Source: the human T2T-CHM13v2.0 reference genome, Homo sapiens
Strand: one strand, 5' to 3'
Assembly: GCF_009914755.1 (NCBI RefSeq)
Contig: NC_060947.1
Length of the DNA: 64,000 bases
Part shown: one piece after another, positions 1 to 27,049 of the stretch
How positions within the stretch are numbered: the first letter of the stretch is position 1
How the letters are laid out: every line of letters begins with the position of its first letter
Notes under the pieces: generated by a model
What the model was told of the DNA's origin: nothing
What the model saw: only the letters and a program-made list of their open reading frames with translations
Databases searched by the model: none
Program-made: the position numbers and the translations under genes

Positions 1-704
1 CATTTTCATCCATTTTGTTACCATCCAAAATCTAGCCCGTGCTTACAATTGGTCAAATTGCACTTGAGATAACCTAGTTGGAATGCCTTTTTTAATGGAG
101 TCAGCTCTGGCTCTCCCTGCCCGGCAGAAAAGCACCTGGCCAGGGGCTTCTGGGCCACCCTTCCTGGGAAATTCAGCCTTATCGCTCAGGAAACCCTTGC
201 AGATGATGGGTGTCCATCACCTAGATCTTGGGCTGCGTTCAACAGCAGTGGGACAAAAGCAGACGACACCTTCCATTCCTGCCTGAGGTAGAGATTCCTC
301 TCTGTTCATCCCCCATTCGAAAGAAACTGCTCAGAGTTGCTTTCCATTCCAGGCTTTTCTCCCACACTCTGAGAATCTGGCTCTGGGCCCACCCAACTTC
401 ATTAGAGTCAGCTCCTTCAGAAGGAACTGAAGTTTCCCAAAGCCCAAAATGCCCCAGCTCAGGGCACTGACACTCCACTACTCTCACCCGGAGCGCCACA
501 CCCTCACCCCTCTCTTACATTTCCTCTACATCTTACAGGACTTCTCACCACCTTAATTATATGACTGCAGGTCCTAGGCTCTACAGCCCTATGGGTAGGC
601 GTGAGTCTGGCTTACCTTAGCATCCCCACTACTAACCCAGGGCCTCCCACAGAGCAGATGCTGAGTGAACGGAAAAGAAACGAGCCAGTGAAGAGGAAGA
701 ATTA

Positions 705-720
705 TTTATTCAGATTTAAT
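705..720 (-). terminator. MAGEA3: MAGEA3 polyadenylation signals (ATTAAA, AATAAA)
   Basis: + strand tttatt at 705-710 and tttaat at 715-720, about 550 nt after the stop codon. Confidence 0.85.
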
Positions 721-1258
721 TTCGCTTGCATTCTCAAAGAAGTCAAGGAAATCCTGGTTTGCATATTTGTTTAATTTTACAGAATAGATTGAGGTACAAG
801 GCAAGAATCAACTATCTTTTGATTTCTTGAGTTATCTCATGTATGTTATTGCTAATTCGCTCACAATTTTAAGCAAATACTTTTACCACTGCTATTATTA
901 TGTCACAATTCACAAAATGGAATGGATTTCCCAATTTGAGTAAAAAACAAGACTCTTACTCCTAAACTATATAAACAGCACTATGTGTGACTACTGTCAT
1001 TCATAAACCTGGATGCTGACGCTCATTCAACCATCCGTTAAAAGGAACATTTGAACAACTCCAACAGGAAACAAAGAATAATCTCAAAGTCATCCAACAG
1101 AACAGAAACCCACTACTAAGAATGCTGACTGCTCGCTTCAAAGAGTGAAGAATGGGCCTCACGTCACAGGAGGCAGTGGAAACTAAGGGATGCGGCCCCG
1201 GAAGGTGCACTGGCCCAGACCCCCTCCCACTGGCCCTGGCTGCAACTCGTGCTCAGAC

Positions 1259-2203
1259 TCACTCTTCCCCCTCTCTCAAAACCCACTCATGCAGGGGTGG
1301 GTAGGAAATGTGAGGTCCTCCACTGATCTTTACCATATGGTGCAGGACTTTCACATAGCTGGTTTCAACGAGGGCCCTTGGACCCCACAGGAATTCATAA
1401 CATGCAGGATCACTGCCGGGGACCTGCCGGTACTCCAGGTAGTTTTCCTGCACGAAATGTTGGGTGAGCAGCTTCTTGGGATCCCCCAAGATACTGTCTT
1501 CCCTCCCCTCAAACACCTCTAACACACTCAGCTCCTCCCAGATTTTCTCCTCAGGGGCACAGTCGCCCTCTCTTGCGATTATGGCCAGGACGATTATCAG
1601 GAGGCCTGCCTTGGGCATGATCTGATTGTCACCCAGCAGGCCATCGTAGGAGAGGCCCAGGCAGGTGGCAAAGATGTACAAGTGGCCGATGGGGTCCACT
1701 TCCATCAGCTCGATGCCAAAGACCAGCTGCAAGGAACTGGAAGCTTTGCTGAAGATCACAGGAAAGAAATACTGCCAATTTCCGACGACACTCCCCAGCA
1801 TTTCTGCCTTTGTGACCGGCTCCCTGGCTCGATACTTGAGGAGCAGAAAATGAACCAACTCGGCCACCTTCCTACTGAGTGCTGCTTGGAACTCGGACTC
1901 CAGGTCAGGGAAGGTGCTTGGCCCCTCCTCTTCTTGGTTGCTGGAGTCCTCATAGGATTGGCTCCAGAGAGGGTAGTTCATGGTAGTGGGGAGGCTGGAG
2001 GCTCCCTGAGGACTCTGGGGAGGATCTGGTGACTCGGCAGCAGGCACCTCCCCCAGGGTGACTTCAACTAGAGTAGAAGAGGAGGAGGCAGCCTCCTGCT
2101 CCTCAGTAGCAGGAGCCTGCGCACCCACCAGGCCCAGGGCCTCTCCTCGGGCCTCAAGGCCTTCTTCAGGCTTGCAGTGCTGACTCCTCTGCTCAAGAGG
2201 CAT
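1259..2203 (-). CDS. MAGEA3: Melanoma-associated antigen 3 (314 aa, CDS entirely within exon 3)
   Basis: ATG at 2203-2201 begins [20 protein letters not shown] and the frame ends LREGEE*. It has the MAGEA3 peptides [38 protein letters not shown] and FLWGPRALV; from recall MAGEA6 has KVAKLVHFL and EVDPIGHVY. The extra 28 N-terminal residues in the ORF track cross the exon 3 acceptor at 2269-2270. Confidence 0.97.
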
Positions 2204-2348
2204 GATGACTCTGGTCAGGGCAACAGGCGGGAGTGTGGGCAGGAGCTGGGCAATGGAGACCCACTGGCCTGGGGAGAGAGGGAGCATGTGAGAGACCTCA
2301 GCTGAGTACTGAATGGAACCTTGGAGGCTCTAACAAAGGCTTACTTAC

Positions 2349-2414
2349 AGATCTTCTCCTTCAGTGCTCCTCCGGGGGCCTCTGGTCCTCCAGGTCAGCC
2401 TGTCCCCTCAGAAC
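2349..2414 (-). other. MAGEA3: MAGEA3 non-coding exon 2 (66 bp)
   Basis: cttcag|GTTCTGAGGGGACAGG...GAGAAGATCT|gtaagt; canonical acceptor and donor; matches the recalled MAGEA3 5'UTR. Confidence 0.9.
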
Positions 2415-4049
2415 CTGAAGGAGGAAGTGAGAGGGCACCTCAGGGTACATCCGGCCAGCGCATGCTGAGGCTGCAGGACTGAAAGTATTGAGGGTGAGGC
2501 CAGGCGCTCTGGAGTCCATGTGTTCTGGGGCAGGTGGGGCCCTTGGTTTGAATCCAAGGCAAACCTTCACCGTTGGCACTATCTGAGCCCCCTCTACTCT
2601 GTGACCTGAGGACACTGCCTCAGACCAAGTCCTCACTGCCTTGTTCCTGGAGCTCCTGATTCCTGGGAGAGGAATCCACGGGCCCCCAATGTGCAGACAG
2701 CAAACGCAGCCACGGATTCCCAGAACTGTCAGGAGGGTTGGCCAGACTCTGTGAGGTCCCCACTCTACTGGGGTGGAGGATCCCCTCTGTGCTCACTCAG
2801 GGCCCTCACCTTTCTCCTTATAGGGCCTAATCCCTCCCTTCTGCTGGCCTGAGAATCTCTCATGTCAAGAACTCACATACCTGATATGGTACAGAAAAAC
2901 ATGAGGGGACCCACATCTGGCCATACATTCCCAGGTCCTCCCGGAAAGGACAACGAGAGATGTCCAAATTTATTGAAGTCCATGTACCCTGGGTGAGGAG
3001 ACTGCTTGGTCCTCACCTCCACTCCTAGTAGGGTCTGAGAGCCTCCCTCTACTGCCCTGAGTGCAGCCCCCTCAGACCAAGGCTTCCCCTTCCCTGACAT
3101 CAGTGATCCTAGGATAATGGAGGGACCTCAGCTGACAGCCCTGCCCAGGCTCTCTGAGGTAACAGCAGGAGCAGGGCAGATTTTTATGGGGCCCCCAGTC
3201 CGCATTCTGTCCCAGGGGTACCCTCAATCCTCCCTCAGTCTCTTCACCTGGATGCTTGGCAGATCCTAGGACCACTGCATCTGTCCACCACATAGGGGCC
3301 CCTTGGGGGTACACCTTGGGCCCTGCAGATCCTGGGATTCCTCCCTCTGCTGACCTGAAGTCCCACTCTTCAGACCACAGCCCTCAACTCTCTGGTCACC
3401 CTGAAGGCGCAATGAGCACAGAGCACATTTGGCCACTGTGCCCAGCATCCCCCAGCCCAAGGTTGCCACTGATCTGGACTCCAAGGTCCCCTCAGTCCTC
3501 CCTCTTCTTCCTCCCCATGACTCCTCGCAGGGCTGGGCCCCAACCCCCTGCTGAAGTGGGTCTGCATCCCTAGGATTCCCGTAGCCGAATGAAAAGGTGC
3601 CTCGGTTTGAGACAGGGGTACAGTGGGCCCCCTGTCCTGGCATGCTGGGTCCCCTCAGGACTCCACTGTCTTCCAGGAGGGCCTGGGCCCTTTCGCTGCC
3701 TCCCAACGGCCATACTCGCGATACCGAACCCCTTCCCTCCCTTAGCCGTAGATGTGAACCTCAGGACTCACGTGCCTGGCCGCCATTCCCGGAGCTTCCG
3801 TGACTTGATACCAGGGGCAAAGCCCGGATTCTGCCAGGATAGGGGTGGGGGTGGGGATGGGAATGGGGAATGGGGGATGGGGGTGGGGTTGGTGTTGGGG
3901 GACGGGAATGGTGGTGAGGGTGGTGGTTAGGCTGCCCTCAGTTCCCTCTCGGGGTCCTGACCTTGATTCCTGCCACAGCGTGGGCCCTGACCTCTTCTAA
4001 CCAGCCCTGCCCTGGCCACATTAAGCTCTGTCCCCAGAGTTCCCCGTGG

Positions 4050-4950
4050 CTAAAGCGGCGGGGGTCGGCGGGGTGAGGTAGTGGCGACCCAGCCTGGAAG
4101 TCTTCCCCTGCGGGGTGGCCCAGGCCCGGCAGCAGAGGCAGCACTGGATTATTTGAGGCCCTCTGTCTGAGGTGAGGCCCGCCTCAGTCCTCCCTCAGCG
4201 TCTTACCTTGCCTCCTCACCGAGCCTGGGCCGGCTTCCCTCCGCCGACGTCAGGCCGTCGCTCGTTGCTCAGGGCGAGAATCTCGCGGTCTTCTGACCTC
4301 CAATGCGCAAGTCAGTGGCGTCACATCCTGGCAACGGTACTACCCTGGGTTCCGGGCAGGGGTGGAACTGGATTCTGCCTGGATGGGGATCGGATGGGGG
4401 TGGAGGTAAGCATGAAGATGGTGATGGGGCAAGGGGTAAGGATTGGGACGGGGGTCCTGAGGCTGTAGATCCTGGTGGGGTCGGGGGAGTTGGGGGTGGG
4501 TGGGCGGGGCCTTCGGTCATCCCTCAGGGTCCTGAAGTTGATGCCTGGCTGAGCCTGGACCGCCATCCTCTGCAGATTGCTTCTGCTCCCCTCAGACCAA
4601 GTCTCTGACTCTGAGTCCCCCTGAAGTGGCATTGGGGGAAGGGGTGTGGTCTGGGTGACATCACTGCCTGCGTTTACCAGGGCTGACAAGAGGGGCTGAG
4701 CTGGATTCTGTGGTCCCTCTATGGTGTGTGGGGTGGGGGGGCGGTGTGGACCCTCAGTCCTCACTCAGGAGGGTCGTCTTCGTCACCTCTGGCTGTTGGA
4801 TGAAGTGATGGGCAGGAGATGCTCTGTTTCTGTCACCTGTGAGCATTTGCACAGCTGCACCCCTTGTAGAGAATGCCTGCGGGTCCCAGGCCAGGTGCTC
4901 CCTGCAGGGCGGGGCGGCAGCTCCCGCGGTTGTAGTGACCTCCTATTTCA
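4050..4950. promoter_or_regulatory. MAGEA3 CpG-rich germline promoter, probably bidirectional
   Basis: Local CpG cluster, Ets-like cores (acatcctgg ~4323, ttccgg ~4349), GC boxes (gggcgggg ~4502) and G-tracts. MAGE-A promoters are known to be silenced by methylation and to depend on Ets sites. Confidence 0.7.
4207..4284 (-). other. MAGEA3: MAGEA3 non-coding exon 1
   Basis: GAGATTCTCGCCCTGAGCAACGAG...GAGGAGGCAAG|gtaaga; CpG-rich; matches the recalled mRNA 5' end. TSS approximate. Confidence 0.85.
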
Positions 4951-5382
4951 GTCTTTGTGTTCTGTTGAAAGAATTTTTTTTTTTTAAAAATGTAATTCCT
5001 CTGCCACTATGGTGGTTTCAGGTTGTTATTAGCAGAACTCTGGAGTCATACTGCCTTAACCAACCAAATTTTCCTGGTGTCCTGCTATTACCTAGGGCTC
5101 TTGGCATCGTGTTTTCAGAGGCTGCCTCAGATTGTGCAAAGAAGTGAAGTGGAAAATTTCAAACTTTTATTCTACCCATTCTGTCATCTACCGTGTAGGC
5201 CGGCTACAAACCTCCCCAACATCCCTGCTGCTAACCCCCTCCAACCAACACTGCAAGTGTCAAACACAAGTACCAGCTCAACACAGCCTTGAGTCTCACC
5301 CTGGGCTTTCCCTGTTTTGTTGCGTAGATTTTGTTGCTGATACTGGTTTTTTATTTACTGTTTCCATTCTGTAATTTTCCAG

Positions 5383-5441
5383 GTTTGATTTGGGAAGCAG
5401 AGCACAGCAGCCCAAATTTGTTGTAATGGCGGCGGCTACAG
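5383..5441 (+). pseudogene. CSAG-like first coding exon (MAAAT-A) of a divergent transcript from the MAGEA3 promoter
   Basis: ctgtaattttccag|GTTTGATTTGGG...GTAATGGCGGCGGCTACAG|gtaagg; ATG at 5426 in good Kozak context; resembles the recalled CSAG1 start MSATTA. Confidence 0.7.
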
Positions 5442-7194
5442 GTAAGGCACTAAATTGTAAATAATTTAAGCTGAGTTTACATTTTTACAGTGTTGTGCTC
5501 CCCATGAATGAATATGTTATACTCCTCTATGTATTTCAAGCTTTTTTTTACCTGAATATGTCAGTATACTTCGACAGTTGTCTCTATAAAGACCTTATAC
5601 ATTTTTATTAGACTTCTTTTCAGGCAATTCATGAATTTTGTTGCTATTGCAAATGGCATATTGTCTATTAATTGTTGTAGTTAGTTATTGCTTTCGTGAG
5701 GTGAAGATTTTGATTTTGCTGTAGTAATCTGTTGCACTCCTCGTTCTGAAGGCCGATGCACTTGAATATTCCACATACCTTTTCCTTTGAATTTTCAAGA
5801 TCGATAATGGTATTATCACTAAACATTACATATTCTTCCAGTATTCATACCACTTACTCATTTTGGTACTTATAGCTCTTTGTGTCTCAATCCTGATTTC
5901 AATCGTAGAGATAATAGCCTACATCTACTTCTCGTTCCTGACGTGAATGATAATTATTCGAACGTTTTGCATTTAAGTATGTTTGCTGTTGATTTTAGGA
6001 AGTGCAATTTCTCTTTGAATATAGGTTAAATACTTTTTTTTTTTTTACCATGAACTCATATTAAATTTCTTTAAAAAGCTTTTTCTGTACCCGTTGACAC
6101 AATCAAATTTTTTTCTCCTCCATTTTGTATGTAAGGAATTACAATGAAACCGTTTTTTTTTTTTCCCCTAATGTTAAACCGTATGTTATTTCCTTGGGCA
6201 GAGCCTGTTTATTTAATATGCTAGTAATTTACGTAGGATATTTGCTGCTATGTAAGGGAGCTTACTTAATGTGTGCTTTTTTTCCCATCAAGGGTGGGAT
6301 GTGGTCCTCATCTGGTTTTTGAATCCAGGAGGGCTAGTCTGGAAGAATGAATTGAACAATTGTAAATATTTTGTATGTTCTAGAAGAGATGAGATAAGAT
6401 GGTGGTTAGTTTTCCCTGATCATTTGGTAGAATTGGCCTCCAATACTGCCTAACCTGGAATGTTTGAAGGTGGCTTGAGCTTTGAATATTGTACAGTTTC
6501 AGTTTTTATAGTTTAATTAAAGTTTTCTTTTTCTTTTTGGATCAGTTTGGTTACTGGTTTATTTTATTTCTACAAAGTGGTCAGTTTCATTTAGGATTTC
6601 ACTTTTAATGGCATATTTATTATAAAAAAAGTTTTACTAGGGAAAGCCTTCACACGTACAGAATAATAGGAACTAATGTAATGAACCCAGGATACTAGAT
6701 ACCCAGCATGAACAACTTTAAATACACAGCAAATCTGGTTCCAGTTAGACACTTGCCTACCTGCACATCAGCTTCTGGAATAACGTGGAGCGAATCTAAG
6801 GCATTAGACCATTTCATCTCGAAATAACTCAATATGCATTTTTAAAAGATAAGGACGTTTTATTAAACAGAATCCCAATAGTTTTCATATCTGAAAAATT
6901 ATATAAATGATTATCAAATATTCAACTATTTTACATGCTTATCTGGCCGACTTATACTTTATAAAAAACATATTTCTTTGATGGAGTACCCAAATATGGT
7001 AACTTTCCCGCCACTTGCTTCACTGTAGTGGTTTCATACATGTATAATACAGCTAGGTTTGTGTGTGTGTGTAACATTCTACATTCTGTCCCATGATTCT
7101 CCAACTTCTTAAGTTACTTTTAGACTTTACATACATTAAGCTTCACTCTTTGTGCTGTAAAGATCTATGGGTTTTGACAAATGCCTCGTGCCGT

Positions 7195-7558
7195 TGTCTT
7201 AGTCCCTTTGGGCTTCCATAACAAAAATAGTGTAGACTGGGTGGCTTATAAACAACACAACTTTATTTCTCACATTCTAGAGGTTGGGAAGTCCAAGATC
7301 AAGGTGCTGGCAGATTTCATGTCTGATGGAGACCTGCTCCCTAGTTCATAGACAGTTGCCTTTTCCCTATGTCCTCACATGGAAGAAGGGGCAAGGGATC
7401 TCTGTGGGGTCTATTTTATAAAAACACTGATCCCATTCATGAGGACTCTGCTCTCATGAACTAGTCATTCTCCAAATACCCCACCTTCTACCTAATACCA
7501 TCACCTTGGTATTTCAGCAGATGAAGTTTGTGGGAACACAAATATTCAGATGAAAGCA
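7195..7558 (-). mobile_element. MLT1A-type MaLR solo LTR inside an old L1 (L1MC-like, ~7100-8830)
   Basis: tgtcttagtcc...gactgggtggcttataaacaac...gaagtccaagatcaaggtgctggcag; flanks are typical antisense L1M 3' sequence. Confidence 0.75.
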
Positions 7559-8834
7559 AGCACGGAACCACCATTACAGTATTACCATACTAGTTTCACT
7601 GCCCTGATAAATCCCCTGTGCTTGTCAGATAACCCCCTTGGCTGCCACTGATAGGTGTTTCATCTTTATAATTTTGCCTTTTCCTGAATGTCATATAAAT
7701 AGACTCGCATACTATGTAGCCTTTTTAGACTGGTTTCTTTCACCTAGCATAATGAACTGAAGAGTCATGTATAACTTTGTGTGGCTCAGAACTTATTCCT
7801 TTTCATTGAGGAGTAGTAGTATCATTGTCTGGTTGTACCATAGTGCGTGTGTATATATATATCCATCCACCAAATGAAATACATTTTGGATGCTTCTATT
7901 TTTGGTGATTATGAAATAATCTTTTGTATACAATCGTATACAAATTTTTATGTAGACGTAAGTTTTCACGTCAATTGGGTAAATTGATTATGACTGCTGA
8001 ATCTTATGCTGTGTTCAGTTTTTTAAGAAAACGCCAAATTGTCTTCCAAAGTGGCTGTACCATGTTGCATTTCCACCAGCAATGAATGAGAGTTTCTGTT
8101 GCTCCACATCTTCCCTGGCAATTGATCTTGGTTTTCTTTTCTTTTTTTTTTTTTTTTTGCTTTTTTATGGATTTTGGACATTCTAATAGGTGTGTAGTGG
8201 TATCTCATTTTAGTACACAGTTATCTAATGAGAACGGATTCTCAGTACTTTTTTATGCTTATTTGCCATGTGTATATCTTCTTTTGTGAGGAGTGTGTTC
8301 AGATCTTTGCCTATTTTCATGTTTTTTCTGTCGTTGAACTTTAAGAATTCGTGTATGTTGTAGAGATATGTTCTTTATCACATATGTGTACCACCGATGT
8401 TTTCTGCTAGTCTGTGGCTTCTGTTTTCATTCTCTTAACATTGTCCTTTGAAGAGCACATGATGTTTATTTTAATAAAATCTACTTGGTAAATTTTTCTT
8501 TCATTGATCATGCTTTTGGTGTTGAATTTAAAAACTCACCACTGAACTCAAAGTTATGTGAATTTTCTCTTATGTTTTCTTATAGAGGGTTGTATAGTTT
8601 TTGCATTTTGCATTAGGTCTGTGATTTATATCGAGTTAATTTTTCTGGAATATGTAAGGATGTTTCTAGGTTATTATAATTTGCCTGTAGATGTCTAATT
8701 GTTCAGGCACCTTTTGCTGGAAAAACTGTACTTTCACCATTATTGCCTTTGTTGTGAATCACCTGACTATAAGTGTGCAGGTCTATTTCTGAGCTCTATT
8801 CTGTTTTATTAATCTATGTGTGCATTCTTTGCTA

Positions 8835-9253
8835 ATGCTTATGTCCTCCACCAAATTCATACTTTGAAGCCCTCAGCCCCGGGGTGTCTGCATTTGGAGA
8901 TGAGGCCTCTAAGGAAGTAATTAATATTAAAAGAGGTCATAAGGGTGGGGCCTTGATCCCATAGGATTAGTATGGTTATAAGCAGTTAGAAGAGACAGAA
9001 GAAATTACTTGTGTGCCTGCACTAGCTCTCTCTCTCTCTCTCTCTCTGCACATGCACAGAGGAAAGGCCAAGAACGGATATATTGAGAAAGGGCTATCTA
9101 CAAGCCAGGAATAAGGCCGTCACCAGAAACCAACCCTGCCAGTCCTTGATCTGGGACTTCCATACTTCAAAACTGTGAAAAAAAATAAATTTGTTTTGTT
9201 TCAGCTACTCAGTCCATGGCATTTTGTTAGGGCAGCCTGAGCTTACTAAGACA
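8835..9253 (+). mobile_element. MLT1A-type MaLR LTR
   Basis: aaattcata...tttggagatgaggcctctaaggaagtaatt...ggcagcctgagcttactaagaca. Confidence 0.75.
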
Positions 9254-9370
9254 TAACCTCAGGTAACACAATTTTTTTTTGTTTTCTCCTACAGAAAAAA
9301 AAAAAACCCATAATTTTGACATTTAAGTCTGTGGTTCATTTTGAGTTACATTTTTGTATGGTGTAAGATA

Positions 9371-9725
9371 TGTGCGATGGTTAGTATTATGTGTCAACTT
9401 GTCTAGGCTATAGTGCTCAGCCGTGTGGTCAAACAGTAGTCTAGATGTTGTTGTGAAGGTATTTTGTAGTTGTGATTGACATTTACCATCAGTTGACTTT
9501 AAGGGAAGCAGTTTAATCTCCATAATGTGGATGGGCCTCATCCAGTTAGTTGAAGGTGTTAAGAGAAAAGACTAAGGTTTCCTGGAAAAGGAATTCTACC
9601 GCAAGACTAACATAAAAATGTTGTGTGAGTTTCTAGCCTGCTGGCCTGCCTCACAGATTTGGGATATACAAGACCTCATAATCACATGAGATAATTCCTT
9701 ATGAAACCTTTATCTTTCTTTCTCT
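9371..9725 (+). mobile_element. MLT2 (ERVL) LTR carrying the CSAG2/3-like N-terminal reading frame
   Basis: gatggttagtattatgtgtcaacttgtctaggctatagtg is an MLT2 5' end. 9525-9650 translates MWMGLIQLVEGVKRKD*GFLEKEFYRKTNIKMLCEFLACWPA. Confidence 0.85.
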
Positions 9726-10047
9726 CCCTCCCTTTTTACATAGATAGATATGTAGGTAGGTAGCTAGATAGATAGATAGACAGGAAGAAAGCAATTACGG
9801 ATTGAAATTCAGTTTTGCATATAGATATCCAGTTGTTCTAGACCCAGTTGAATACACTATCATTTCTCTCCTCGAATCTTCATTTGTATCTTTATCAATA
9901 TTTGACTTATATATATATGCATATACATGTGGATCCATTCCTGGACTTTACTCTCTTCTTTTTATGTGTTTCTAAATTTAGGACAATTCCACACTATACT
10001 GATTATTGTTAGTTAATAAACCTTCAAATGAAGTAGGGGAACCCCTC

Positions 10048-10537
10048 TGTATTTATTCCTTTTCACACAGCTGATAAAGCATACCAGAGACTGGGAATGT
10101 TACAAAAGAAAGATGTTTATTGGACTTGCAGTTCCACGTGGCTGGGTAGGCCTCACAATCATGGTGGAAGGCAAGGAGGAGCAAGTCACGTCTTACATGG
10201 ATGGCGGCAGACAAAGAGAGAGAGAGCTTGTACAGGGAAACTGCCGTTTTTAAAACCATCAGATCTCTTGAGACTTATTCACTATCACGAGAACAGTATG
10301 GGAAAGACCCAACCCCATGATTCAATTATCTCCCACTGGGTCCCTCCCACAACATGTGGGAATATTGGGAGCTACAAGATGAGATTTGTGTGGGGACACA
10401 GAGCCAAACAATATCATTCCACATGTGGCCCCTCCCAAATCTCATGTCTTCACCTTTCAAAACCAATCCTGCCTTCCCAACAGTCCCCCAAAGTCTTAAC
10501 TCATTTCAGCGTTAACGCAAAAGCCCACAGTCCAAAT
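10048..10537 (-). mobile_element. THE1 LTR (10048-10416) plus adjoining THE1-internal fragment
   Basis: gctgataaagcataccagagactggg...ggaggagcaagtcacgtcttacatggatggcggcag...gggacacagagccaaacaatatca, followed by ggcccctcccaaatctcatgtc. Confidence 0.85.
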
Positions 10538-10775
10538 CTTGAGAAGTTGTCAAAGGACACTCAGTTTTCTTCAGTTAATAATGTAAAAGGACTGCACTGA
10601 CGTGGTTAAATTCCCAGGACTCTCAGTTCTTTAGGAATGGACTAAATATCTGGTATCGTCACTTACAAAAGTGTCTTGAACTTGATATAGTTTATGTTCA
10701 GAAATTGGTTCATATTTTTTATTTTTATCTTTTAATTCAATTTTTTTTCATGAGCTTTTTGAAGGCCCCCGGATA
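10538..10775 (+). mobile_element. HSMAR2 mariner transposon 3' fragment
   Basis: ttttcttcagttaataatgtaaaa...ggttaaattcccaggac...cacttacaaaagtgtcttgaacttgat...tttttgaaggcccccggata resembles the HSMAR2 end and TIR. Confidence 0.7.
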
Positions 10776-12207
10776 TGCACCCTGTATAAAGGAGAAAAAT
10801 TCTCGGGACTACTAATTTTGACCGAAATTATTGTTGATTTAATTTATACAAACACAAAAGGTGATACAAACATTTTTATAGCACCTAATGAACATATTTG
10901 TGAAATAAATGCATTCAAAAACAAACTAAAACAGAAAAGAATAAAAATATACAATAAAATAGTACACAGCAGGTTGCTGATTGTGGTGACCTCTGAGGTG
11001 CGGGCTGAATTGTGGAGGAACTTTATACAGAGAAGAATTGTGAATTATCTGTATTTTAGATTTCTTTTGCAACAAGAATATAGGCACAATTATCTTTTAA
11101 ATTACAATATCTAAATAAGCCTAACAGCAAAAATAGTAGCTGTGTATTAGTCAGTTAAAGTAACTGAAGTAACTGCTAGCTGATGCAATAGGCAAACCCT
11201 GGAATTTGAGTGACATGACAAAACACAAGTTTATTTAATGTGCACATGAGTCCTGATGTGGTTTGACAGGGCCTCTCCACTCTCCCGTGACCCAGGTATC
11301 CAGGCAGCTTCCACCTCGGGATTCCACCACCTCAACATGAGGCTGCCATGTTTACTATTAGATGGAGGGAGAAAGCATGGAAATGGCACACTGGCTCTCA
11401 GATGTCTAGATGTGACAAACAATGCTTCTGCTCATGTTTCAGTGGTAAGGGGTTGTCACATGACCCTTCCTAACTACAAGTGGACTGTACTGTTCCCATG
11501 TATCCAGGAAAGAGAGGAAGATGAGATGTGGGTGAGCACTATAGTCTCTCCCATAAACTGTTGCATAGTAGGTGCTCAACAAAAAGGAACTATTATTATT
11601 TGCTATGACAACAGCCCTCTTCATTGCTGGGAGGAGTTTCGGAGAAAACCAGATTTTCTTTACGTTCTCCAACTTTTTTTAAGTGTGTACTGTATGACAG
11701 ATGCTTTCAAATACAGGATCACATGTAGTTTTCTAAGGATCCAGTATACCTCAGCACCTCGTGTGATATACTAACTTCTTCACTCACTAGTATAGTTAGA
11801 TATACTAACTATCTTCACTTACTAACACTTTTCTGCACTGTCATTTGCAATAATGTCTGAAACCTTAGTAGGCTGAGAATTTCTCATTCTTTTAATTCAT
11901 GGGTAAAACCTCAACCTGTGGGTCTCTGCTACCCTCCTGTTACCTGAACGTCTGTTCAGATGCCATTAGACACATTGAAAGCTATGTCTTTCCTGTGGGG
12001 CAGATCCACAGACCAGAAGTAGTGCCAAGAGAGTTCTTTTTTTCATTTCTGATTTTTTTTCCATTTCTAATCAGAGCTAGCATGCCTACCGAGGAACCAC
12101 TTTTCGTCTCCTAGGAGAACTTTAGGGTTTTAGGAATTCAGCTTCAGTAGATATTTGCCCCACAGTGATTTTGACAGTCCTTCCTCATCTGTCACTTATG
12201 AAGGAGA

Positions 12208-12593
12208 TGCTGTGAACTGAACTGTGCCCCCACCCCCACCAAAACTCATATGTTGAAACCCTAAGACCCAGTGTGATGTATCTGTAGATGAGGCCTTTGG
12301 ACGTAATTAGAGTTAGATGAGGTCATTAAGGTGGAACCTTCGTGATGGGATTACCGCTCTTATAAGAGACATCAGAGAGCTTGCTCGCATTCTCTCCTTC
12401 TGCCATGTGCAGACACACAGAGAAGGTAGCTGTCTACAAGCCAGGAAGAGACCCTCACCAGGCATCAAACCTGCTAGAACCTTGATCTCAAACTTCCCAG
12501 CCTCCAGAAATGCGAGAAACATCTACCTATTTGTTTAAGCCACCCAGTGGTACTTTGTTATGGTACTTTGTTATGGCAGCCTGAGCTAATACA
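12208..12593 (+). mobile_element. MLT1A0-like MaLR solo LTR
   Basis: tgctgtgaactgaactgtgcccc...gatgaggtcattaaggtgg...tatggcagcctgagctaataca. Confidence 0.8.
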
Positions 12594-13191
12594 AGAGGCT
12601 TTGGCTTTTGACCATCTATGTATGTGCTCTGTGGCCAGTTTCCAATGAGACAGCTTATTAAAGTCCTATTGTAAATATAGGATGGTTTCAAACACTTTCT
12701 AACTTCAGGGTTGTATCCCAGGAACTGATATATTATAAGTCAAAATCAGACGCTACTCACCAGCTGACTTGGAAAACATTTTAAGAATGTGTTGAAGACA
12801 TCCAACAGGATGATCAGATGTCTAAAGGTCTCTATTCAAAGTCAAATGTATTTTTGCTATTAGAGGGGCCCCAGTGTGAGGAACAGGGACAGTCAGGGGA
12901 CTTCTCCAGAAAGTAGAACTGTTCTATGTTAGGAGAAGGGCAGGTGACTCTTGGCTGTCCCACTGGAAGTAGGGCACAGCCTTTAAAGGATGCAACCATG
13001 AAGAGCTTAGCAGCAAGCTCGATTCCAGAATTGGACAGGCAGGCACATGGGGCAAGACCATTGTGGAAGGGTGCTATAATTCGGGAAAGTGCTGGGAATG
13101 CACAGAAATGCTGGCACCTGGACAGAGTTGGCTCTCAAGGAACCACAGACGATTCCTAAATTGTGTTGGTTCTCATTGTCACCTTCCTTCA

Positions 13192-14010
13192 TGTCTTAGT
13201 CATTTCATGCTGCTGTAACAAAATGCTATAGACTGGGGGTCTTACACAACAGATGCTTATTTTCTCCCAGTTCTGGAGGCTGGGAAGCCAAAAGTCAGAA
13301 TGCCAGTATGGTGGGTGTCTGGTGAGGGTCTTCTTTCTGGCTTATGGATGCCCACCTTCTCTGTGAGTCCTCACATGGCAGAGAGAGAAAGAGAAAAATG
13401 TGCAAGCTCTCTGGCATTTCTTCCTATAAGGACACTGATATGGTCTGGATCAGTGTCCCCACCAAATCTCACGCTGAATTGTAATCCACAGTGTTGGAGG
13501 TGGGGCCTGGTGGGAGGTGATTGGATCATGGGGGCAGATTTCTCATTAATAGTTTAGTACCATCACCTTGGTACTGTGCTCATGATAGTGAGTGATTTCT
13601 CACGACATACGGTCATATAATAGTGTGTGGCAATGCCCCCCCCGTCTCTCTTGCTCCTGCTTTCACCAAGTGAAGAGCCTGCTCCTTCTTTGCCTACTGC
13701 CATAAGTAAAAGCTCCCTAAGGCCTCTCCAGAAGCAGATGCTGCCACGCTTCCTGTACATCCTGCAAACCGTAAGCCAATTAAACCTATTTTTTTTTAAT
13801 AAATTACCCAGTCTCAGGTATTTCTTTATAGCAACGCAAGAATGAACGAATACAGACATTAATCCAATCATGAGGGCCTACGCTCTCAGGAGCTCATCTA
13901 ACCCTAATTACCTCCCAAAGGCCCCATCTCCAGACCATCACATTGGGACTTAGAGCTTCAACATATACATTTTTTTTTTTTTTGGAGGGGAGCACATTTC
14001 AGTCCATAGC
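13192..14010 (-). mobile_element. MLT1A-type LTR split by an MSTB-type LTR (13436-13854, + strand)
   Basis: The MST runs tgatatggtctgg...gaatgaacgaataca and is flanked by a 5-bp TSD GACAC/GACAT; the host LTR resumes on both sides. Confidence 0.8.
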
Positions 14011-14164
14011 ACTTCTTTAGGCATACTTTTTGTAGCTTGACCACAGGGTCCTTCTTTTGGTTGCCTGAGAGACGTGGATTCCTGAGAAGTAAATAGCAAG
14101 ACGAAGGTCTGCTTCAGGTTGGGACGCGAAGGAATGACATACACTCAGATGAATTCGGACCATG

Positions 14165-14640
14165 TGTATTAGTTTGCTTTGGCTATCATAACAAGGTACC
14201 ACAGACTGGGGGAGCTTAAGCGTCAGAAATGTATTTTCCCAGTCCCGGAGGCTACAAGTTCAGGCTCAAGGTGTGGGCAGGGTTGAGTTGTCCTGAGGCC
14301 TGTCTCCTTGACTTGTAGATGGCCATTCTCTTCCTGTGTCTTCACATGGTCTTTCCTCTGTGTGTGTCTGTGTCCTAATGTCCTCTTCTTATAAGGACAC
14401 CAGTCATATTGGATTGGGGCCCATCCTAATCTAGCAGGGATGCAATCCCAACCGTGTTGCTTATTAGCCATGTAATTATGGGGAAATCATCAAGCCGCAT
14501 GAGCATCAGGTTCTTCATCTGTGAAGCAGGTTTGATAAAGTCTGTCTTATAGGACTTTTGGAGTGTGTGCAATGTAAGTAAAGCACTTGGCTCAGGGCCT
14601 GGCATATATTAGATCGTTAATGTTTGGCAGTTATTTGTGT
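14165..14640. mobile_element. MLT1C-like LTR fragment followed by a MIR
   Basis: tgtattagtttgct...accacagactggg...ttataaggacaccagtcatattggatt; then ttcttcatctgtgaa...tgtaagtaaagcacttgg. Confidence 0.65.
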
Positions 14641-15814
14641 TACTATTTGGAACTCAGATCCTACCATAGTTGCCTCTGGGAATTTTGTTGTTGCTGTTGT
14701 TATTGTTATCTAGGAAACCTCAGAGTACGTAGCACAACAGTACAGAGAATAGAATACCAACTCAGCCCAAAGTGTTGCTTCATAGACAAAACACAGTAGA
14801 ATTTCCCTCCTAGAGGATCTATTGTTTAATTTGTGTGTGGAGGAGTCTTCTTCAGCTGGATTGCAGCTCAGTGTTCCTGGAACGTGAGTCCAGGACCAAC
14901 TCTTTTCCTCCCTCTCAGCTGCTTTTCCATCTCAACCACTATTTTCATTCATATAATCACCACGCAAAATCTAGCCCATGCTCAGGAATGGCCAAATTAC
15001 ACTTGAGATAACCTAATTAGAATGCCATTTGACTAGAGTCAGCTCTAGCTCTCCCACTAAGGCAGAAGAGTACCTTGCCAGTGGCTTCTGGGCCTCCCTT
15101 CCTGAGAGATTCACCCTTACCTCCCAGGAAACCCTTGCAGATGATGAGTATCCATCACCTAGCTCTTGGGCTGTATTCAACCGCACTGGGATAAGAGCAC
15201 AGGATGCCTTCCATTCCTGCCCCAGGTGGAAACTCGTCTATGTTCATCCACCAACCATAATGAACTGCTCAGAGCAGTTTTCCATTCCAGGCTTTTCTCT
15301 CCCTGAGAATCTGACCCTGGACCCACCAGCTTCATTAGAATCAGCTTCCTCCGAAGGAACTGCAGTTTCCCAAAGCCCAAAAGGCCCTGGCTCAGGGCAT
15401 TTACACTCCACCACTCTCACCGGGAGCACCACACATTCTGCCCTCTCTTACTTTTCCTCTAGGTCTTAGAGGAAATCTCACCAACTTAATTTTATGACTA
15501 TAGCTCCTAGACCCTACCACCCTTCGGGTAGGGGTGGGTCTGACTTATGCCAGTATCTCCAGTAACACAGTGCTTTCCAAAGAGCAGATGCTCAGTGAGT
15601 GTTTGAGAAAGAATGAGCCAGTGACCAGGACTTCCATTTAAGATATAATTTCTCCTACATCCTTGAATAAGCCAAGAAAATCCAGGTACACATATATGGC
15701 TTAATTTTATAGAACAGCACATGAATAAAAAGCTGAGAATTAACTGTCTTTTCCTTTTATTTCTATTTTTTAGAGTAAAGTGAGAGCAAGTTTATTAAGA
15801 AAGTAAAGAAATAA

Positions 15815-16173
<359 letters not shown>

Positions 16174-16239
16174 TGGTTGCCCATTTTTATGGTTATTTCT
16201 TGATTATATGCTAAACAAGGGGTGGACTATTCATGAGTT

Positions 16240-16269
16240 TTCCAGGAAAAAAGTGGGGAATTCTTGGAA
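16240..16269. promoter_or_regulatory. Tandem GAS (STAT) motifs in MER41 U3
   Basis: TTCCAGGAA (16240-16248) and TTCTTGGAA (16261-16269), both TTCN3GAA, at the position of the known MER41B STAT1 sites. Confidence 0.6.
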
Positions 16270-17384
16270 CTGAGGGCTCCTCCCCTTTTTCAGCCATATA
16301 GGGTAACTTCCAAACGTTGCCATGGCATCTGTAAACTGTCGTGGTGCCGGTGGGAGTGTCTTTTAGCATGCTAATGCATATAATGAGCAGTGAGGATGAC
16401 CAGAGGTCACTCTCATTGCCATCTTGGCTTTGGTGGGTTTTGGCTGGCTTCTTTACTGCAACCCGTTTTATCAGCAAGGTCTTTATGACCTGTATCTTGT
16501 GCCGACATACTGTCTCATCCTGTGACTAAGAATGCCTTACCTCCTGGGAATGTAGCCCAGTAGGTCTCAGCCCTATTTTACCCAGACCCTGTTCAAGATG
16601 GAGTTGCTCTGGTTCAAACACCTCTGACATTTCCCTCCTCCCTTTTATCTGAGAACCTTTATTCCTAAGGGTTGTAGAGGGATGAAGATCCATCTTCTGT
16701 AACTTCTTCAGGCTGAATAGGGGTGATGATATTACTGCCTAATTATGAGAGTCTTTTGAATTCAGGACAGAGAGGAGCTCAGTCAGAAAGCGTCAGTTTG
16801 GTGAGGGTCATACACAACTCTGAGTTCTGACAAAACATGTTATCTGGAAGATTAATAAGTGTTCAGTTTAAGAAAACATTGAGTAAGCTTATCCTGCACT
16901 CCTGCACCAAGAATACAACACCAGTGTATTCCACAACAGTAAAGCAAAATAAGTAAAATTATCCCAAGGTAAACTAAGTAAGAAGGCTTTCCTTGAACTG
17001 GGCAACTGTTAGAACCAGGCTGATACGGGGTCACTATCTGATTTCAATATGTGCCCAGAACTAGAATATTGATCCAGATTTTTACATTACCCATCCCTCT
17101 TGCTTCTTCTAAATAGCAGTCAGGGATCACTGATTGGTTCACAGGAATAAGAAAAGTGAGTCTAAATTGCAGAAAAAAACTTTAAAACAACGAATGAAAC
17201 TAGAATCTAATAACAGGTGCACCATAGTTTTTGCAACATCATATTTTTTTCTCTCTCCAGTCTCCCATTTTTACTAAAGACAAATCATGGTAAGACTGGT
17301 TTGTTTTATTATACTTGGCCTGATCATTTGTATAAAGTGCAGCAAGAATAATTATTTTTCACATACGCTCTTTATATTTTTATT

Positions 17385-18120
<736 letters not shown>

Positions 18121-19085
18121 TCAAATACCTCTGAGTTGGGTAAAATCCTCTCCTCTTGAGGTCCCAAGATAACTTGGGGCTCCTGGGCCTGTCAGATAAT
18201 GACATTCTTTACTTACCACAGGTCAGTAACCCTGCACAGGGACTGTGTAGACAAGTTATGAGGCTAGTTTTCCCAAGGGGTTTTTATTGGCTCTATAAGT
18301 CAAGTTTGATCCCTTAAAGGAAAGAACACCATTCCAGTCAAAGCCTTGGTAAAATAACCAGTTTCTCCAATTGTGTCTTGTTGCAAAAGAAAACAGATTC
18401 TTATTGCACTTATGCAAATAACTATATTGCTATAAGTTAAGAATATTCACAAGCAGTTTCCAAATTCTAGAGAAATTAGGTAGAGAGAAACAAATATGCT
18501 CTGAATTTTGTTCACAGAAGTATACTTTACTGAATTGTTAAAAGCTGTCAATAGCCCAGAAGAAAAGTTTTCCTGACTCCAAAGTCTGCCAGTCAGTGCT
18601 GCCGTCTATTTCCTTTGGGTCAGGGGGTTTCCTCAGTATTGTCCCTTCAGGGTTCACCGGAAAGATGTTACTGGAATGGGGTCCCAGTGCAGACTCCAAA
18701 AGAGGGTTCTTGGAGCTCGTGCAAGAAAGAATTCGAGGTGAATCCATAGAGTAAAGTGAGAGCAAGTTTATTAAGAAAGTAAATAAAAGAATAGCTACTC
18801 TACGGGCAGAGCAGCCTATCTTTTCCTTTTATTTCTCTGTTTCATGACCCCATCAATTTTTTTGCTAATGTATTTCATTCTCCAAGGAAACACCTATTCC
18901 AATGCCATGGCATCTTGTTCCAAACCGCAAAACCAGATGAAGGGCTTCCCAATATGTTTTACAAAATAGCAAACTCATCCAAATAGAACAGAACACAAAG
19001 ACATTATACACTGAGTTCCCTTCCACCCACCGTGCCTTTCACTAGTGAGAACGCTGACTGCTCTCTTTAGAGTGAAGAATGGGCC

Positions 19086-20010
19086 TCATGTCACACAGGG
19101 TGGGGAAGCTGCTGGATGTAGCCCTGGAACGTGCACTAGTCCACCCCACCCTCCACTGGCCCTGGCTGCATCGCCTGCTGAAACTCTCTCTTCCTCATAG
19201 CATGCAGGATCACTTCTGGGCACCTGCCAGTACTCCAGGTAATTTTCCTGCACCCAATCCCGGGTGAGCAGCTTCCTGGGCTCCCCATAGATGAAGTGCT
19301 CCCTCCCAGCATACACCTCTATCACATTCAGGGCTTCCCACATAACCTCCTCTGGGGCGCAGTTGCCCTCCGTGAAGATCACACACAGGACAATTATTAG
19401 GAGGCCCGTCTTGGGCTTGCTCGGGTCATCAACCAGCATGCCATCATAGGAGAGGCCCAGAGAGGTGACAAGGACATAGGAATGGCCGGTGGGGACCACT
19501 TCCTTCACGTCGATGCCAAAGATCAGCTGCATGTACTCGGAGGATTCCTTGAAAATGAAAGCGAAGTAGTCTTCGTGATTTTTGATGACACTATCCACCA
19601 TTTCTGCCTTTGTGACTGACTCCTTAATTCGAAACTTGTGGAGCAGGACACTAACTAAATCAGACACCTTGTCAGAGTGCCTCTCGGAGGAAGGACTCCA
19701 TGACACTTGGGATGGGCAAGGTGATTGGCTCCTCCTTTTCTTGGCTGCTGGAGCCCTCATCGGATTGGTTCCATAGAGTGTTATCGATGGTAGTGGGGGA
19801 GGAGGAGGCTCCCTGCATACTCTGGGGAGGACTCAGTGCCTCAGCAGCACACAACTCCTCCAGGGTGCCCATGATCAGACTAGAGGAGGAAGAGGCAGCC
19901 TCCTCCTCCTCAGGCACAGGACCCTGCCCACCCACCAGGCCAGGGACCTCTCCTTGGGCCTCAAGGCCTTCCTCAGGCATGTAGTGCTGACTCCTCTGTC
20001 CAAGAGGCAT
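19086..20010 (-). pseudogene. MAGE-A family pseudogene coding exon (frameshift plus C-terminal deletion)
   Basis: ATG at 20010 gives MPLGQRSQHYMPEEGLEAQGE...REAL* (112 aa). The MAGE homology domain continues in another frame from ~19673 (DKVSDLV...VTKAEM...GLSYDG...[19 protein letters not shown]...PACYE). The FLWGPRA segment is missing. Confidence 0.93.
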
Positions 20011-22970: not shown

Positions 22971-24015
22971 AGGGTCCTGAACGTGATGGCTGGCAGAGCC
23001 TGGCTGCTGCCCTCTCCTAGGCAGCCCTGCCCTGATCACACCAACCTCTGACTCCAGAGTCCCCTGAGGCTTAAGTGGCAGAGAGTTGGGGGCGGCCCAG
23101 CCTGAGAAGTCCGCCCCCGGGTGGTCCTGGGTTGGCAGCAGGGGTGGTGCTGGATTTTTTAGGGTCCTCTATCTTGGGTTGCAACGGGGTGTCCCTAGTC
23201 CTCCCTCAACGCCTCACCTTTCCTTCACACACAGCCCGGGCCCGCTTTCCTCCGCCGATCTTAAGCCACCCCTCAAAACCAGGCCCTCGCTTCCCTCTGA
23301 TCCCTGAGGCGCAAATCAGTGGCATCACATCCGGGCACCCGGGGCTTCCCTGCGTTGACAGCAGGGGCAAAACCTGATTCTGTCGGGGTGGGGGTGGGGA
23401 TGGGAATGGGAATGGAGGAGGGGTGGGGGCGAGGATGGGGGTGAAGATGGGGATGGGGATGGGGATCCTGAGGCTGTAGGTCGTGGCGGTGACGGTGGGC
23501 TTGGGGGTGAGGGAGGCCCTCAGTCGTTCCTCAGGGTCCTCACCTTGAAACCTGGCAGAACCTGGGCCCTGCCCTCTCCTAACCACCCCTGCCTTGGTCA
23601 CACCAAGCTCTGACTCCAGAGTCCCCTGTGGCATAAGCGGCGGGGGTTGGCAGGGCGCCGGGGGGTGGCCCAGACTGAGAAGTACTCCCCTAGGTGGTCC
23701 AGGGCTGGCAGCAGGGGTGACGCTGAATTATTTGGGGTCCTCTATCTGGGGTGGAGGCGTCCTCAGTCCTCCCTCAGCCTCTCACCTTGTCTTCTCACAG
23801 AGCCTGGGTCCACTTCCCTCTGCCAATCTCAAGCCGCCCCTCAGACCGAGACCCTCGCTTCTCTGACCCCCTAGCCGTCACATCCGGCCACCAAGCCTGG
23901 GGCTTCCTTGGGTTGACTGCTGGTGTCATAGCGGATTCTGCTATGAGTGGGGGTGGAAATGGGGGTGGGGGTGGGGGGTCGAGGTCGAGGGGGTGGGCAC
24001 TCTCAGTCATCCTCA
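22971..24015 (-). promoter_or_regulatory. Two tandem MAGE promoter/exon-1 modules (22971-23532 and 23533-24015)
   Basis: Each is homologous to MAGEA3 ~3950-4520 and has an Ets core CCGGATGT (23327-23334; 23880-23887), a donor AAG|gtgag (23218; 23786) and a G-tract. Confidence 0.75.
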
Positions 24016-25262
24016 AGGTCCTGACCTTGATGCCTGGCAGAGCCTGGATCCCATCCTGTGTGGATGGTGTCTGCTCCCCTCAGACCAAAGCACTGACTCC
24101 GAGTCCCCTGAGGTGGCAGTGGAGGGAGGGATATGGTCGGGGCGACAACATTGTCAGGGTCTTCCAGGGCTGACAGGAGGGGCTGAACTGGATTCTGTGG
24201 TCCCTCTATGTGGGGTGAGTGGACCCTCAATCCTTACTCAGGAGGGTTCTCCTCTTGGCTCCTGGCTCTTTGATGAAGTGATGGGTGGGGGATGCTCTGT
24301 TTCTGTCACCTCTGAGTATTCGCCCAGCTGTACCCCTTGCAGAGAATGGCTGCGGGTCCCAGGCCAGGTGCTCCCTGGGGAGCTGCAGTGCCTGCGATTG
24401 TAGTGGCCTCTGGGAGAAGACACACACCTTCCCACGGGGGCTCCTCCCCAGCCAGAAGTCGACTTGTCAAACCTTTTGTCCTAAAGCATTTATTTTTACA
24501 CTGAAGAGGCTGAGCAGCAGCAAGAGAATTGAGGAGTCCTGCATTTGGAATTTTTGTGACATTTAATTGTACTGTTTAGTGACGTGCATATTTTAATCCG
24601 CATTCACACAGTAAGAAATAAATTTTACATTTCTGCTAATTGTATGTGTACATTATATGTCATATATGTAGACTATGCTTATGTTTAGATACATAAACAT
24701 GTATGTATATAAGTTTGTTATATATGAATAATTTTATGTATTCACACTATATATCTTTACAGATATATATGTACATATATTACATATACTTATTTCATTA
24801 AACAATATCTACTCATACTATGTATGATTCACTCATGCTATTCCATTTCTAGTTCATTCTTTATATTCTATTTAAATTACATTTTTGGAAGGCCAGGCCT
24901 CACCTACTAAGTTGGTGTCAAGTGGGTATTAACAGAACTCTGGAGCCATCATGTCTCAATCACACCAAGATTCCTGGTGTCCTGATATTACCCCAGGGCT
25001 ACTGGCATCACATTGTGAGATGCTGCCTCATATTAGGCAATAATATGGGGTGGGAGTTTAAAATAATTTTTCCTTCTACCCATTCTGTAGTGTGCTGTCA
25101 GCGCAGGCTACAGACCTCCCCAACTTCTCTGCCACTACCCCATGCCCCAAACACAAGTAGCAGTTCAATGCAGTCTTAGTCTCCCCAGGGATTTCTCTGT
25201 TTTGTGGTTTAGATTTTATTGCTAATCCTTTTTTTTTCTTTTTCCATTCTATACTTTTCCAG

Positions 25263-25322
25263 AATTGATTTTGGGAACAGAACACAGCAGCCTGAACTTG
25301 ATTGTTATTTTGGCAGCTACAG
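25263..25322 (+). other. Paralogue of the divergent (CSAG-like) exon, without ATG
   Basis: atacttttccag|AATTGATTTTGGG...GGCAGCTACAG|gtaagg; splice sites conserved with 5383-5441. Confidence 0.6.
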
Positions 25323-26860: not shown

Positions 26861-27049
26861 TAGTTGATCCATGGGTAGATATATACATACATACAAATAC
26901 GTATATGTGTGTGTATGTATATATATGCACAGTAGAACCAGAACTGTTAACCCCCATCCTTGTGGGAAACAGACTTATCAACTAGACTGCAGTGCTTTTC
27001 ACTATAGTGCTTCTTTCACTTAACGCTAAGCTCATGTGTTTCTGTTGCT

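What the first reader, a model, noticed from the sequence alone, without database searches (positions are those of the whole stretch)
9525..9650. CSAG2/3 (TRAG-3) N-terminus is readable in an MLT2 LTR, closed by one stop codon
Seen: 9525-9650 translates MWMGLIQLVEGVKRKD*GFLEKEFYRKTNIKMLCEFLACWPA. The recalled CSAG2/3 start is MWMGLIQLVEGVKRKDQGFLEKEFYHKTNIKMRCEFLACWPA, so they differ by TAA versus Gln (9573-9575) and two substitutions. The ORF track misses it because of the stop. Inference: the first ~42 residues of that tumour antigen are LTR-derived, and a single C/T change separates the open and closed frames, a candidate enabling or disabling mutation in de novo gene birth.
Basis: partly seen in the sequence, partly recalled or inferred. 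Interest (0 to 1): 0.75.

Follow-up and report, generated by a model that had tools for sequence, protein, structure and literature searches.

The report
Unfused twin of CSAG's retroviral start
This stretch is a non-coding duplicate of the retroviral end-piece that forms the start of the tumour antigen CSAG2/3, and comparing the copies suggests that the antigen likely arose when a deletion joined that piece to an older testis gene now read mostly in another frame, not through one stop-codon change.

Summary
Window 9525-9650 matches CSAG3 codons 1-42 at 120 of 126 bases, with TAA for Gln17. It lies in an LTR copy (9373-~9794) that is the same insertion as in CSAG1-4, spread by segmental duplication; the window copy is their sister (tree support 100/100).

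LTR origin is real but already tabulated (MLT2C2 in CSAG2 exon 1, 2007 supplement). One C/T change does not separate open from closed. The window lacks codons 43-127 and stops again at codon 55. All three older X paralogues carry C, so its T is probably secondary (not proven).

CSAG differs from older paralogues by a ~1.8-kb deletion at window-equivalent 9651. This joins the LTR to the promoter remnant of a VCX-like two-exon gene, read off-frame after codon 76. The protein is 42 LTR codons, 25 promoter/UTR codons, 9 old-frame codons and about 47 shifted codons. The window shares a frame-opening 2-nt deletion with CSAG but not the fusion, so it preserves an intermediate state. Shared ancestry with VCX is in print; I did not find this stepwise origin in ten searches. 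Translation of residues 1-37 is unverified.

The parts
9373..9794 (+). Solo LTR copy of the ERVL class (MLT2C2 by the published label of its CSAG2 paralogue); its last ~40 bases are missing and it ends in a GATA microsatellite
   Evidence: Homology to dispersed copies starts at 9373 with TG and runs to about 9724; 5-bp direct repeat perfect in paralogue L009, degenerate here; label
9525..9650 (+). Counterpart of CSAG2/3 codons 1-42; not an open frame
   Evidence: 120 of 126 bases identical to CSAG3
9573..9575 (+). TAA at codon 17; CAA in CSAG1-4, CAA/CAA/CGA in three older X paralogues, mostly TGA in dispersed copies
   Evidence: dispersed copies 15 TGA, 2 TAA, 2 CAA, 2 gapped of 21
9608..9609 (+). 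Site of a 2-nt deletion shared only by the window, its mirror copy and CSAG1-4; it moves a second stop triplet out of frame
   Evidence: alignment: all 24 other copies have extra bases here; the stop triplet that follows is in 3 of 3 older X copies and 9 of 21 dispersed copies (counted by eye)
9630..9636 (+). Splice-acceptor-like site inside the LTR; the paralogous site is where the annotated CSAG1 protein enters the exon
   Evidence: Identical in window and CSAG1-4; CSAG1 protein P0013 joins the upstream-exon residues to residue 38 onward
9648..9655 (+). Position of the left breakpoint of the ~1.8-kb deletion found in CSAG1-4; the window is not deleted here and continues with the rest of the LTR
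9687..9689 (+). Next in-frame stop (codon 55)
4294..4405 (+). MAGEA6-DT exon 1; paralogue of the sequence at the MAGEA-divergent start of the CSAG units
   Evidence: exon limits from the annotation given with the finding
5383..5441 (+). MAGEA6-DT exon 2; paralogue of the CSAG upstream exon that ends in ATG plus four codons and a donor
2271..9651 (+). Duplicated unit (MAGEA gene 5' part, divergent start, intron, LTR) shared with the CSAG3 unit
   Evidence: 87-89% identity in three blocks

Best explanation
The window holds a non-coding duplicate of the LTR insertion that supplies CSAG2/3 codons 1-42, and CSAG likely arose in a sister duplicate when a ~1.8-kb deletion fused the LTR's 5' part to an older VCX-like gene that it reads mostly out of frame. 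Shown: one insertion lies in nine X-linked copies; the window and its mirror are sister to CSAG1-4; the four CSAG copies share the junction, lack the TATA-like box seen in the paralogues, and have a coding first exon one base shorter than most paralogues. Inferred order: (1) the LTR brought the ATG and the acceptor site; (2) the stop at codon 17 became a sense codon early, probably TGA to CGA to CAA; (3) a 2-nt deletion in the ancestor of window and CSAG removed a second in-frame stop; (4) after the split, the CSAG branch took the fusing deletion, and the frameshift after codon 76 is fixed in all four CSAG copies (its timing relative to the fusion is not resolved); (5) the window branch probably changed C to T neutrally. 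The window copy sits in intron 2 of MAGEA6-DT and is predicted to make no CSAG-like protein.
For: Nine X copies form one clade, 100/99. Window sister to the CSAG copies, 100/100 in two blocks. Paralogues at X:150.17 and 150.39 Mb align to the CSAG3 unit in two pieces 1.80 and 1.77 kb apart, breaking at window-equivalent 9651. Sequence after the junction aligns to a gene whose translation hits Pfam VCX_VCY at E 6e-63, with the same intron. Coding first exon is 113 nt in 4 of 4 CSAG copies; of the 8 other copies with a start found, 6 are multiples of three (114 four times, 117, 102). From codon 77 the frame CSAG uses scores no better than shuffles against 5 of 5 family proteins, while the neighbouring frame beats all 2000 shuffles for 4 of 5 and the tail behind the CSAG stop for 5 of 5. 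The older frame finds full-length relatives in a protein library (12 hits). All 15 of 23 database CSAG proteins that cover position 17 have Gln, among them a marmoset model that also runs on in the shifted frame.
Against: The three older paralogues could form a clade (not rejected: p-AU 0.23, 0.56); then T kept in the window and T regained tie at two steps each. Gene conversion in this palindrome can blur trees. One other paralogue (X:149.78 Mb) also has a phase-2 first exon through a different indel and one has phase 1, so frame loss is not unique to CSAG. A protein database cannot hold a stop, so the 15 of 15 Gln count is biased. The marmoset protein is a gappy prediction. No sign of constraint on the 42 codons: 6 of 126 differences against 143 of 1836 in the flank, p = 0.29. 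No primate DNA was available.
Confidence: 0.85

Rival explanations
1. The window keeps the original stop, and a T-to-C change on the CSAG branch was an enabling step, though not the only one.
For: 18 of 20 dispersed copies with a base there have T. The window keeps other old states, such as Leu33, also in the marmoset model. The rooting that gives a tie is not rejected.
Against: 3 of 3 older X paralogues have C, one as CGA. Two of three rootings need three changes for this history against two. Of 4 informative sites, 3 favour those rootings; branch lengths put the 151.50 Mb copy deepest.
Confidence: 0.3
2. The window locus is a dead CSAG gene, disabled by the TAA and later stripped of its 3' part.
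For: It shares the upstream exons, the ATG, the 2-nt deletion and 92% LTR identity with CSAG.
Against: It continues through the breakpoint with the LTR's 3' part and 400 more bases that CSAG lacks and older paralogues keep, so it never had the junction, short of a conversion from an unfused copy.
Confidence: 0.04
3. The 42 LTR codons are mostly an annotation of an unspliced 5' end; the main CSAG2/3 product is spliced like CSAG1 from the MAGEA-divergent promoter into the LTR acceptor and contains only LTR residues 38-42. This is compatible with the best explanation for the DNA but shrinks the 'LTR-derived antigen' claim.
For: CSAG2 and CSAG3 keep the upstream ATG exon and donor, and the acceptor is intact. 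The annotated CSAG3 span starts at the MAGEA2 promoter. No constraint seen on codons 1-42. CSAG1 has lost this frame through a 5-nt deletion.
Against: The RefSeq CSAG2 first exon of 2007 began one base before the LTR and held it as UTR plus coding sequence. A review gives the cDNA ORF as 110 aa, the length of P0007, which has the full N-terminus. The siamang protein is identical in 42 of 42 LTR residues. A TRAG-3 peptide 37-45, spanning the junction, is used as a T-cell epitope, though it lies almost wholly in both forms.
Confidence: 0.35
4. The match is only family resemblance between independent LTR insertions.
For: The ATG region is conserved in the family.
Against: Shared flanks over 7 kb, the same insertion point, 92% against 74-80% identity.
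Confidence: 0.01

Closest known systems
CSAG2/CSAG3 (TRAG-3) and CSAG1, cancer/testis family CT24
   Same: Same LTR insertion, same upstream exons, same MAGEA-divergent layout.
   Different: The window copy has the stop, lacks the fusion and has no codons 43-127.
LTR exonisation catalogue of Piriyapongsa et al. 2007 (PMC2008291; seen: main-text passages and rows of supplements 1 and 2)
   Same: Supplement 2 lists NM_004909 (CSAG2 by PMC1890293) twice on X: exon 1 of 417 bases holding 281 bases of MLT2C2, same strand, in both UTR and coding part. This fits the limits found here.
   Different: A table row only; the main text has no mention of CSAG, TRAG or MLT2, and nothing on paralogues, stops or the junction.
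VCX/VCY, SPANX, CSAG and mouse Cypt common ancestry (Hansen et al. 2008; not held, seen only as cited in PMC8327908 passages)
   Same: Shared promoter and amino-acid homology among the families.
   Different: Here CSAG is shown to be cut inside that promoter, joined to an LTR and read off-frame after nine codons. Whether Hansen et al. noted this I could not check.
De novo genes, frameshift-derived genes and chimeric genes in primates (general knowledge)
   Same: Stepwise loss of stops in a non-coding or alternative frame, with paralogues that keep earlier states.
   Different: A mosaic of four sources, built on the exons, intron and 3' end of an older gene, so not strictly de novo.

Membership tests
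ERVL-class (MLT2) solo LTR | Dispersed interspersed repeat with sharp shared 5' edge | tested here: met
   31 of 40 scored matches lie outside the nine related X copies; common 5' edge at 9373
ERVL-class (MLT2) solo LTR | 5' TG terminus | tested here: met
   TG in the window and in 10 of 14 copies shown
ERVL-class (MLT2) solo LTR | 3' terminus ending in CA | tested here: not met
   The terminal ~40 bases seen in several dispersed copies are missing in the window and the three older X paralogues: a truncated copy
ERVL-class (MLT2) solo LTR | 5-bp target-site duplication | tested here: inconclusive
   Perfect in paralogue L009 and dispersed L014 and L016, degenerate in the window (read by eye)
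ERVL-class (MLT2) solo LTR | Primer-binding site or internal region next to some copy | tested here: inconclusive
   A short recalled motif found nothing behind 21 dispersed copies; solo LTRs lack it
ERVL-class (MLT2) solo LTR | Best match to a named subfamily in a repeat library | not testable with these tools
   No repeat library held; published label MLT2C2 for the 92% identical CSAG2 copy
CSAG gene (window copy) | LTR-derived exon start and upstream exons | tested here: met
CSAG gene (window copy) | Junction to the VCX-like 3' part | tested here: not met
CSAG gene (window copy) | Open frame | tested here: not met
   Stops at codons 17 and 55
Strict de novo gene (CSAG2/3) | Related non-coding sequence with shared stops | tested here: met
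   For codons 1-42: stop at codon 17 in 17 of 19 ungapped dispersed copies
Strict de novo gene (CSAG2/3) | No descent from an older gene | tested here: not met
   Codons 43-127 lie on a VCX-like gene, nine codons in its frame
Strict de novo gene (CSAG2/3) | Translation of the new segment shown | not testable with these tools
   Only database annotation and reviews seen
VCX_VCY protein family (CSAG2/3 protein) | Score against Pfam PF15231 | tested here: not met
   0 families for four CSAG proteins; the older frame of a paralogue scores 25.5 bits, E 2.6e-5, under the cut-off of 27

The most novel reading that the evidence does not exclude
CSAG2/3, a tumour antigen reported to activate SIRT1, is a translated simian protein of which about nine-tenths is new sequence: an LTR frame opened in steps, fused by one deletion to a VCX-like gene and overprinted on it. 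The MAGEA3/6 arms preserve the pre-fusion intermediate, and this origin has not been described.
Probability: 0.45. Interest if true: 0.62.

Novelty: new member of a known kind. Interest (0 to 1): 0.45.

Why it matters
The window stretch itself is an ordinary duplicated LTR. Its value is as a witness: with the other paralogues it orders most of the mutations that built a primate cancer/testis protein from a retroviral LTR, a promoter remnant and a shifted frame of an older gene. It would explain why CSAG proteins match no family although the genes share ancestry with VCX. It also raises a practical question for antigen work: whether residues 1-37 are made at all, since a spliced form would skip them.

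Tried and rejected
Independent insertion, and a dead CSAG gene: rejected (see rivals). Rooting the X copies by a 3'-block tree and an LTR tree: unresolved. Constraint on the 42 codons: no signal; primate identities by segment are not clearly above what drift would give by a rough estimate. Pfam on CSAG proteins: nothing. Protein atlas for P0002: best scores 0.85, chance level. Word-index search with the older frame: nothing; the full HMMER search found 12. Bacterial promoter scan: not applicable, nothing. More dispersed copies were listed but not obtained as sequence, so tallies rest on 21 of the 31 dispersed matches, the best-scoring ones and thus biased toward the window. Paper searches: CSAG2+LTR 1 unrelated paper; CSAG2+transposable element+protein-coding+derived 0; MLT2+CSAG 0; CSAG, de novo gene, primate, retrovirus (3 of 4 terms) 206 papers, 15 listed, none on this gene by title or abstract; the epitope search showed no listed paper with the peptide at residues 4-12, so its status as an epitope is recalled only. 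Not held: Yang and Potts 2020, Hansen 2008, Meier 2005. No fold or complex was predicted: the proteins are short, compositionally biased and have shallow alignments.

Full report
OBSERVATION. A search of the window's own genome with 9380-9720 gave the window, a 100% mirror copy, four copies at 91-93%, three X copies at 81-83% and 31 dispersed copies at 73-82% (40 scored of 2007 candidates). Three of the four close copies fall in CSAG3, CSAG4 and CSAG1 by the annotation given with the finding; the fourth is the mirror of CSAG3 and is taken as CSAG2. The CSAG3 copy has an ORF with the expected start, and 23 database proteins match it, several named CSAG2/3 or taxol resistant associated protein. 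Window and CSAG3 differ at 6 of 126 bases: codons 7 (silent), 17, 26 and 33.

ONE INSERTION, MANY DUPLICATES. The match is not limited to the repeat. Window 2271-9651 aligns to the CSAG3 unit at 87-89%, including the MAGEA-divergent start and both annotated upstream exons of MAGEA6-DT. The nine X copies share the 5' insertion point and form a clade (100/99). The window is sister to the CSAG copies in two separate blocks (100/100). The element begins with TG at 9373, lacks its last ~40 bases, and has a perfect 5-base target-site repeat in one paralogue. I could not run a repeat library. Piriyapongsa et al. 2007 (PMC2008291; I saw main-text passages and supplement rows) list NM_004909, exon 1 of 417 bases, with 281 bases of MLT2C2 in both UTR and coding part, twice on X about 50 kb apart. 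NM_004909 is CSAG2 (PMC1890293, table passage), and the lengths and spacing fit the limits found here. So the LTR origin is in print as a table row.

THE STOP. Among the 21 dispersed copies obtained, codon 17 is TGA 15 times, TAA 2, CAA 2, gapped 2; the ATG is present in 17. The family frame is therefore closed. But the three older X paralogues have CAA, CAA and CGA, and CSAG1-4 have CAA. If C arose once at the base of the X clade and the window reverted, two changes suffice. If the window kept T, three are needed, unless the three older copies form a clade, which ties. That clade is neither found nor rejected (p-AU 0.23 and 0.56); 3 of 4 informative sites and the branch lengths lean against it. 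I put a secondary T at about 70%. All 15 of 23 database proteins that cover the site have Gln, but that set cannot show a stop.

A SECOND OPENING STEP. The window, its mirror and CSAG1-4 alone lack two bases after 9608; all 24 other copies have extra bases there, and a stop triplet follows in that frame in 3 of 3 older X copies and 9 of 21 dispersed ones (counted by eye). The window shares this step with CSAG.

THE FUSION. Identity with CSAG ends at 9651. The paralogues at 150.17 and 150.39 Mb align to the CSAG3 unit in two pieces, 1.80 and 1.77 kb apart, breaking at that point. The window keeps the first 400 bases of the lost stretch. So CSAG is a deletion product, and the window never had its 3' part. 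With codon 17 read through, the window frame still ends at codon 55.

WHAT THE LTR WAS FUSED TO. The CSAG 3' part has diverged copies on X, an intron-less copy on chr12, and weaker hits at four X and two Y places. One of the last encodes a VCX_VCY protein (Pfam E 6e-63). The copies share CCAAT-like and TATA-like boxes, a start, an intron and a second exon. The CSAG junction falls between the two boxes and the TATA-like box is altered. CSAG Met68 is the old start. The coding first exon is 113 bases in 4 of 4 CSAG copies, against 114, 114, 114, 114, 117, 102, 112 and 116 in the 8 others where a start was found; 2 further copies had none. From codon 77 the frame used by CSAG scores like its shuffles against five family proteins, while the neighbouring frame beats 2000 of 2000 shuffles for four of them, and the sequence behind the CSAG stop for all five. 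An extra base near the end returns CSAG to the old frame just before its stop. The old frame has full-length relatives among 12 hits in the protein library (unnamed). CSAG2/3 is thus 42 LTR codons, 25 promoter and UTR codons, 9 old-frame codons, about 47 shifted codons and a few old-frame codons. Common ancestry of VCX, SPANX and CSAG is in print (Hansen 2008, seen only as cited in PMC8327908). A marmoset model has the LTR start, Gln17 and the shifted frame (P0016), which would place these steps before the simian split; it is a gappy prediction.

IS THE N-TERMINUS MADE? Not shown here. CSAG1 enters the exon at an acceptor inside the LTR, at residue 38, from an upstream exon that CSAG2/3 also keep with ATG and donor. 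A spliced CSAG2/3 would skip residues 1-37. For the long form: the 2007 RefSeq exon starts at the LTR edge, and a review gives a 110-aa cDNA frame (PMC11245874 passages). I saw no constraint on these codons (6 of 126 against 143 of 1836, p = 0.29). A 2026 study reports elevated dN/dS for the CSAG family (PMC13616518 passages). The SIRT1 role is seen only as cited in PMC7838559 passages. Other papers seen as passages or supplement rows: PMC3326559, PMC9300827, PMC10047177, PMC11317303, bioRxiv 10.1101/778522 (its supplements were not seen); none of what I saw discusses origin.

NOVELTY. Ten searches found no account of the deletion, the frameshift or the unfused sister copy, but three key papers were not held and most subscription papers are not searched. 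Both ingredients, LTR overlap and VCX kinship, are known, and so is the class of event.

VERDICT. Observation confirmed; single-mutation reading not supported; a well-ordered, probably undescribed mosaic origin for a known antigen. Interest 0.45.

Noticed in passing
window 35603-36258, minus strand: Another copy of the VCX-like gene (end of exon 1, intron, exon 2; 79% to the CSAG 3' part), cut off at its 5' side by an element with 110-base inverted arms at 36272-36589. Not in the annotation given.
   Followed up: partly
window 1-19626: Mirror arm of the palindrome lies at about X:150.95-150.97 Mb with 99.4-99.8% identity over the 19.6 kb examined; it carries the same stop.
   Followed up: partly
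L048 (X:150.17 Mb) and L049 (X:150.39 Mb): VCX-like copies whose older frame is still open for about 115 and 95 codons; the first has a broken splice donor, the second an intact one. The second could be an overlooked testis gene.
   Followed up: partly
L056:5370-5880 (chr12): Intron-less copy of the VCX-like gene, which shows the family's splice junction and past germ-line expression.
   Followed up: partly
L006, L007, L009: The same 5-base loss just before codon 16 occurs in CSAG1 and in two older paralogues, likely twice independently at a short repeat.
   Followed up: no
window 24006-27968: The unit next to the MAGEA pseudogene is a more distant duplicate (67-83%) of the same divergent region, with no LTR match seen; it may predate the insertion.
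   Followed up: no
window 57863-59704: Degenerate tandem repeat of about 70 bases, some 18 copies.
   Followed up: no
L003/L034 (CSAG4): Frame open for 88 codons, then a stop where CSAG3 has Arg; the change makes a canonical GT at the donor position of the 110-aa isoform, which is GC in CSAG2/3.
   Followed up: no
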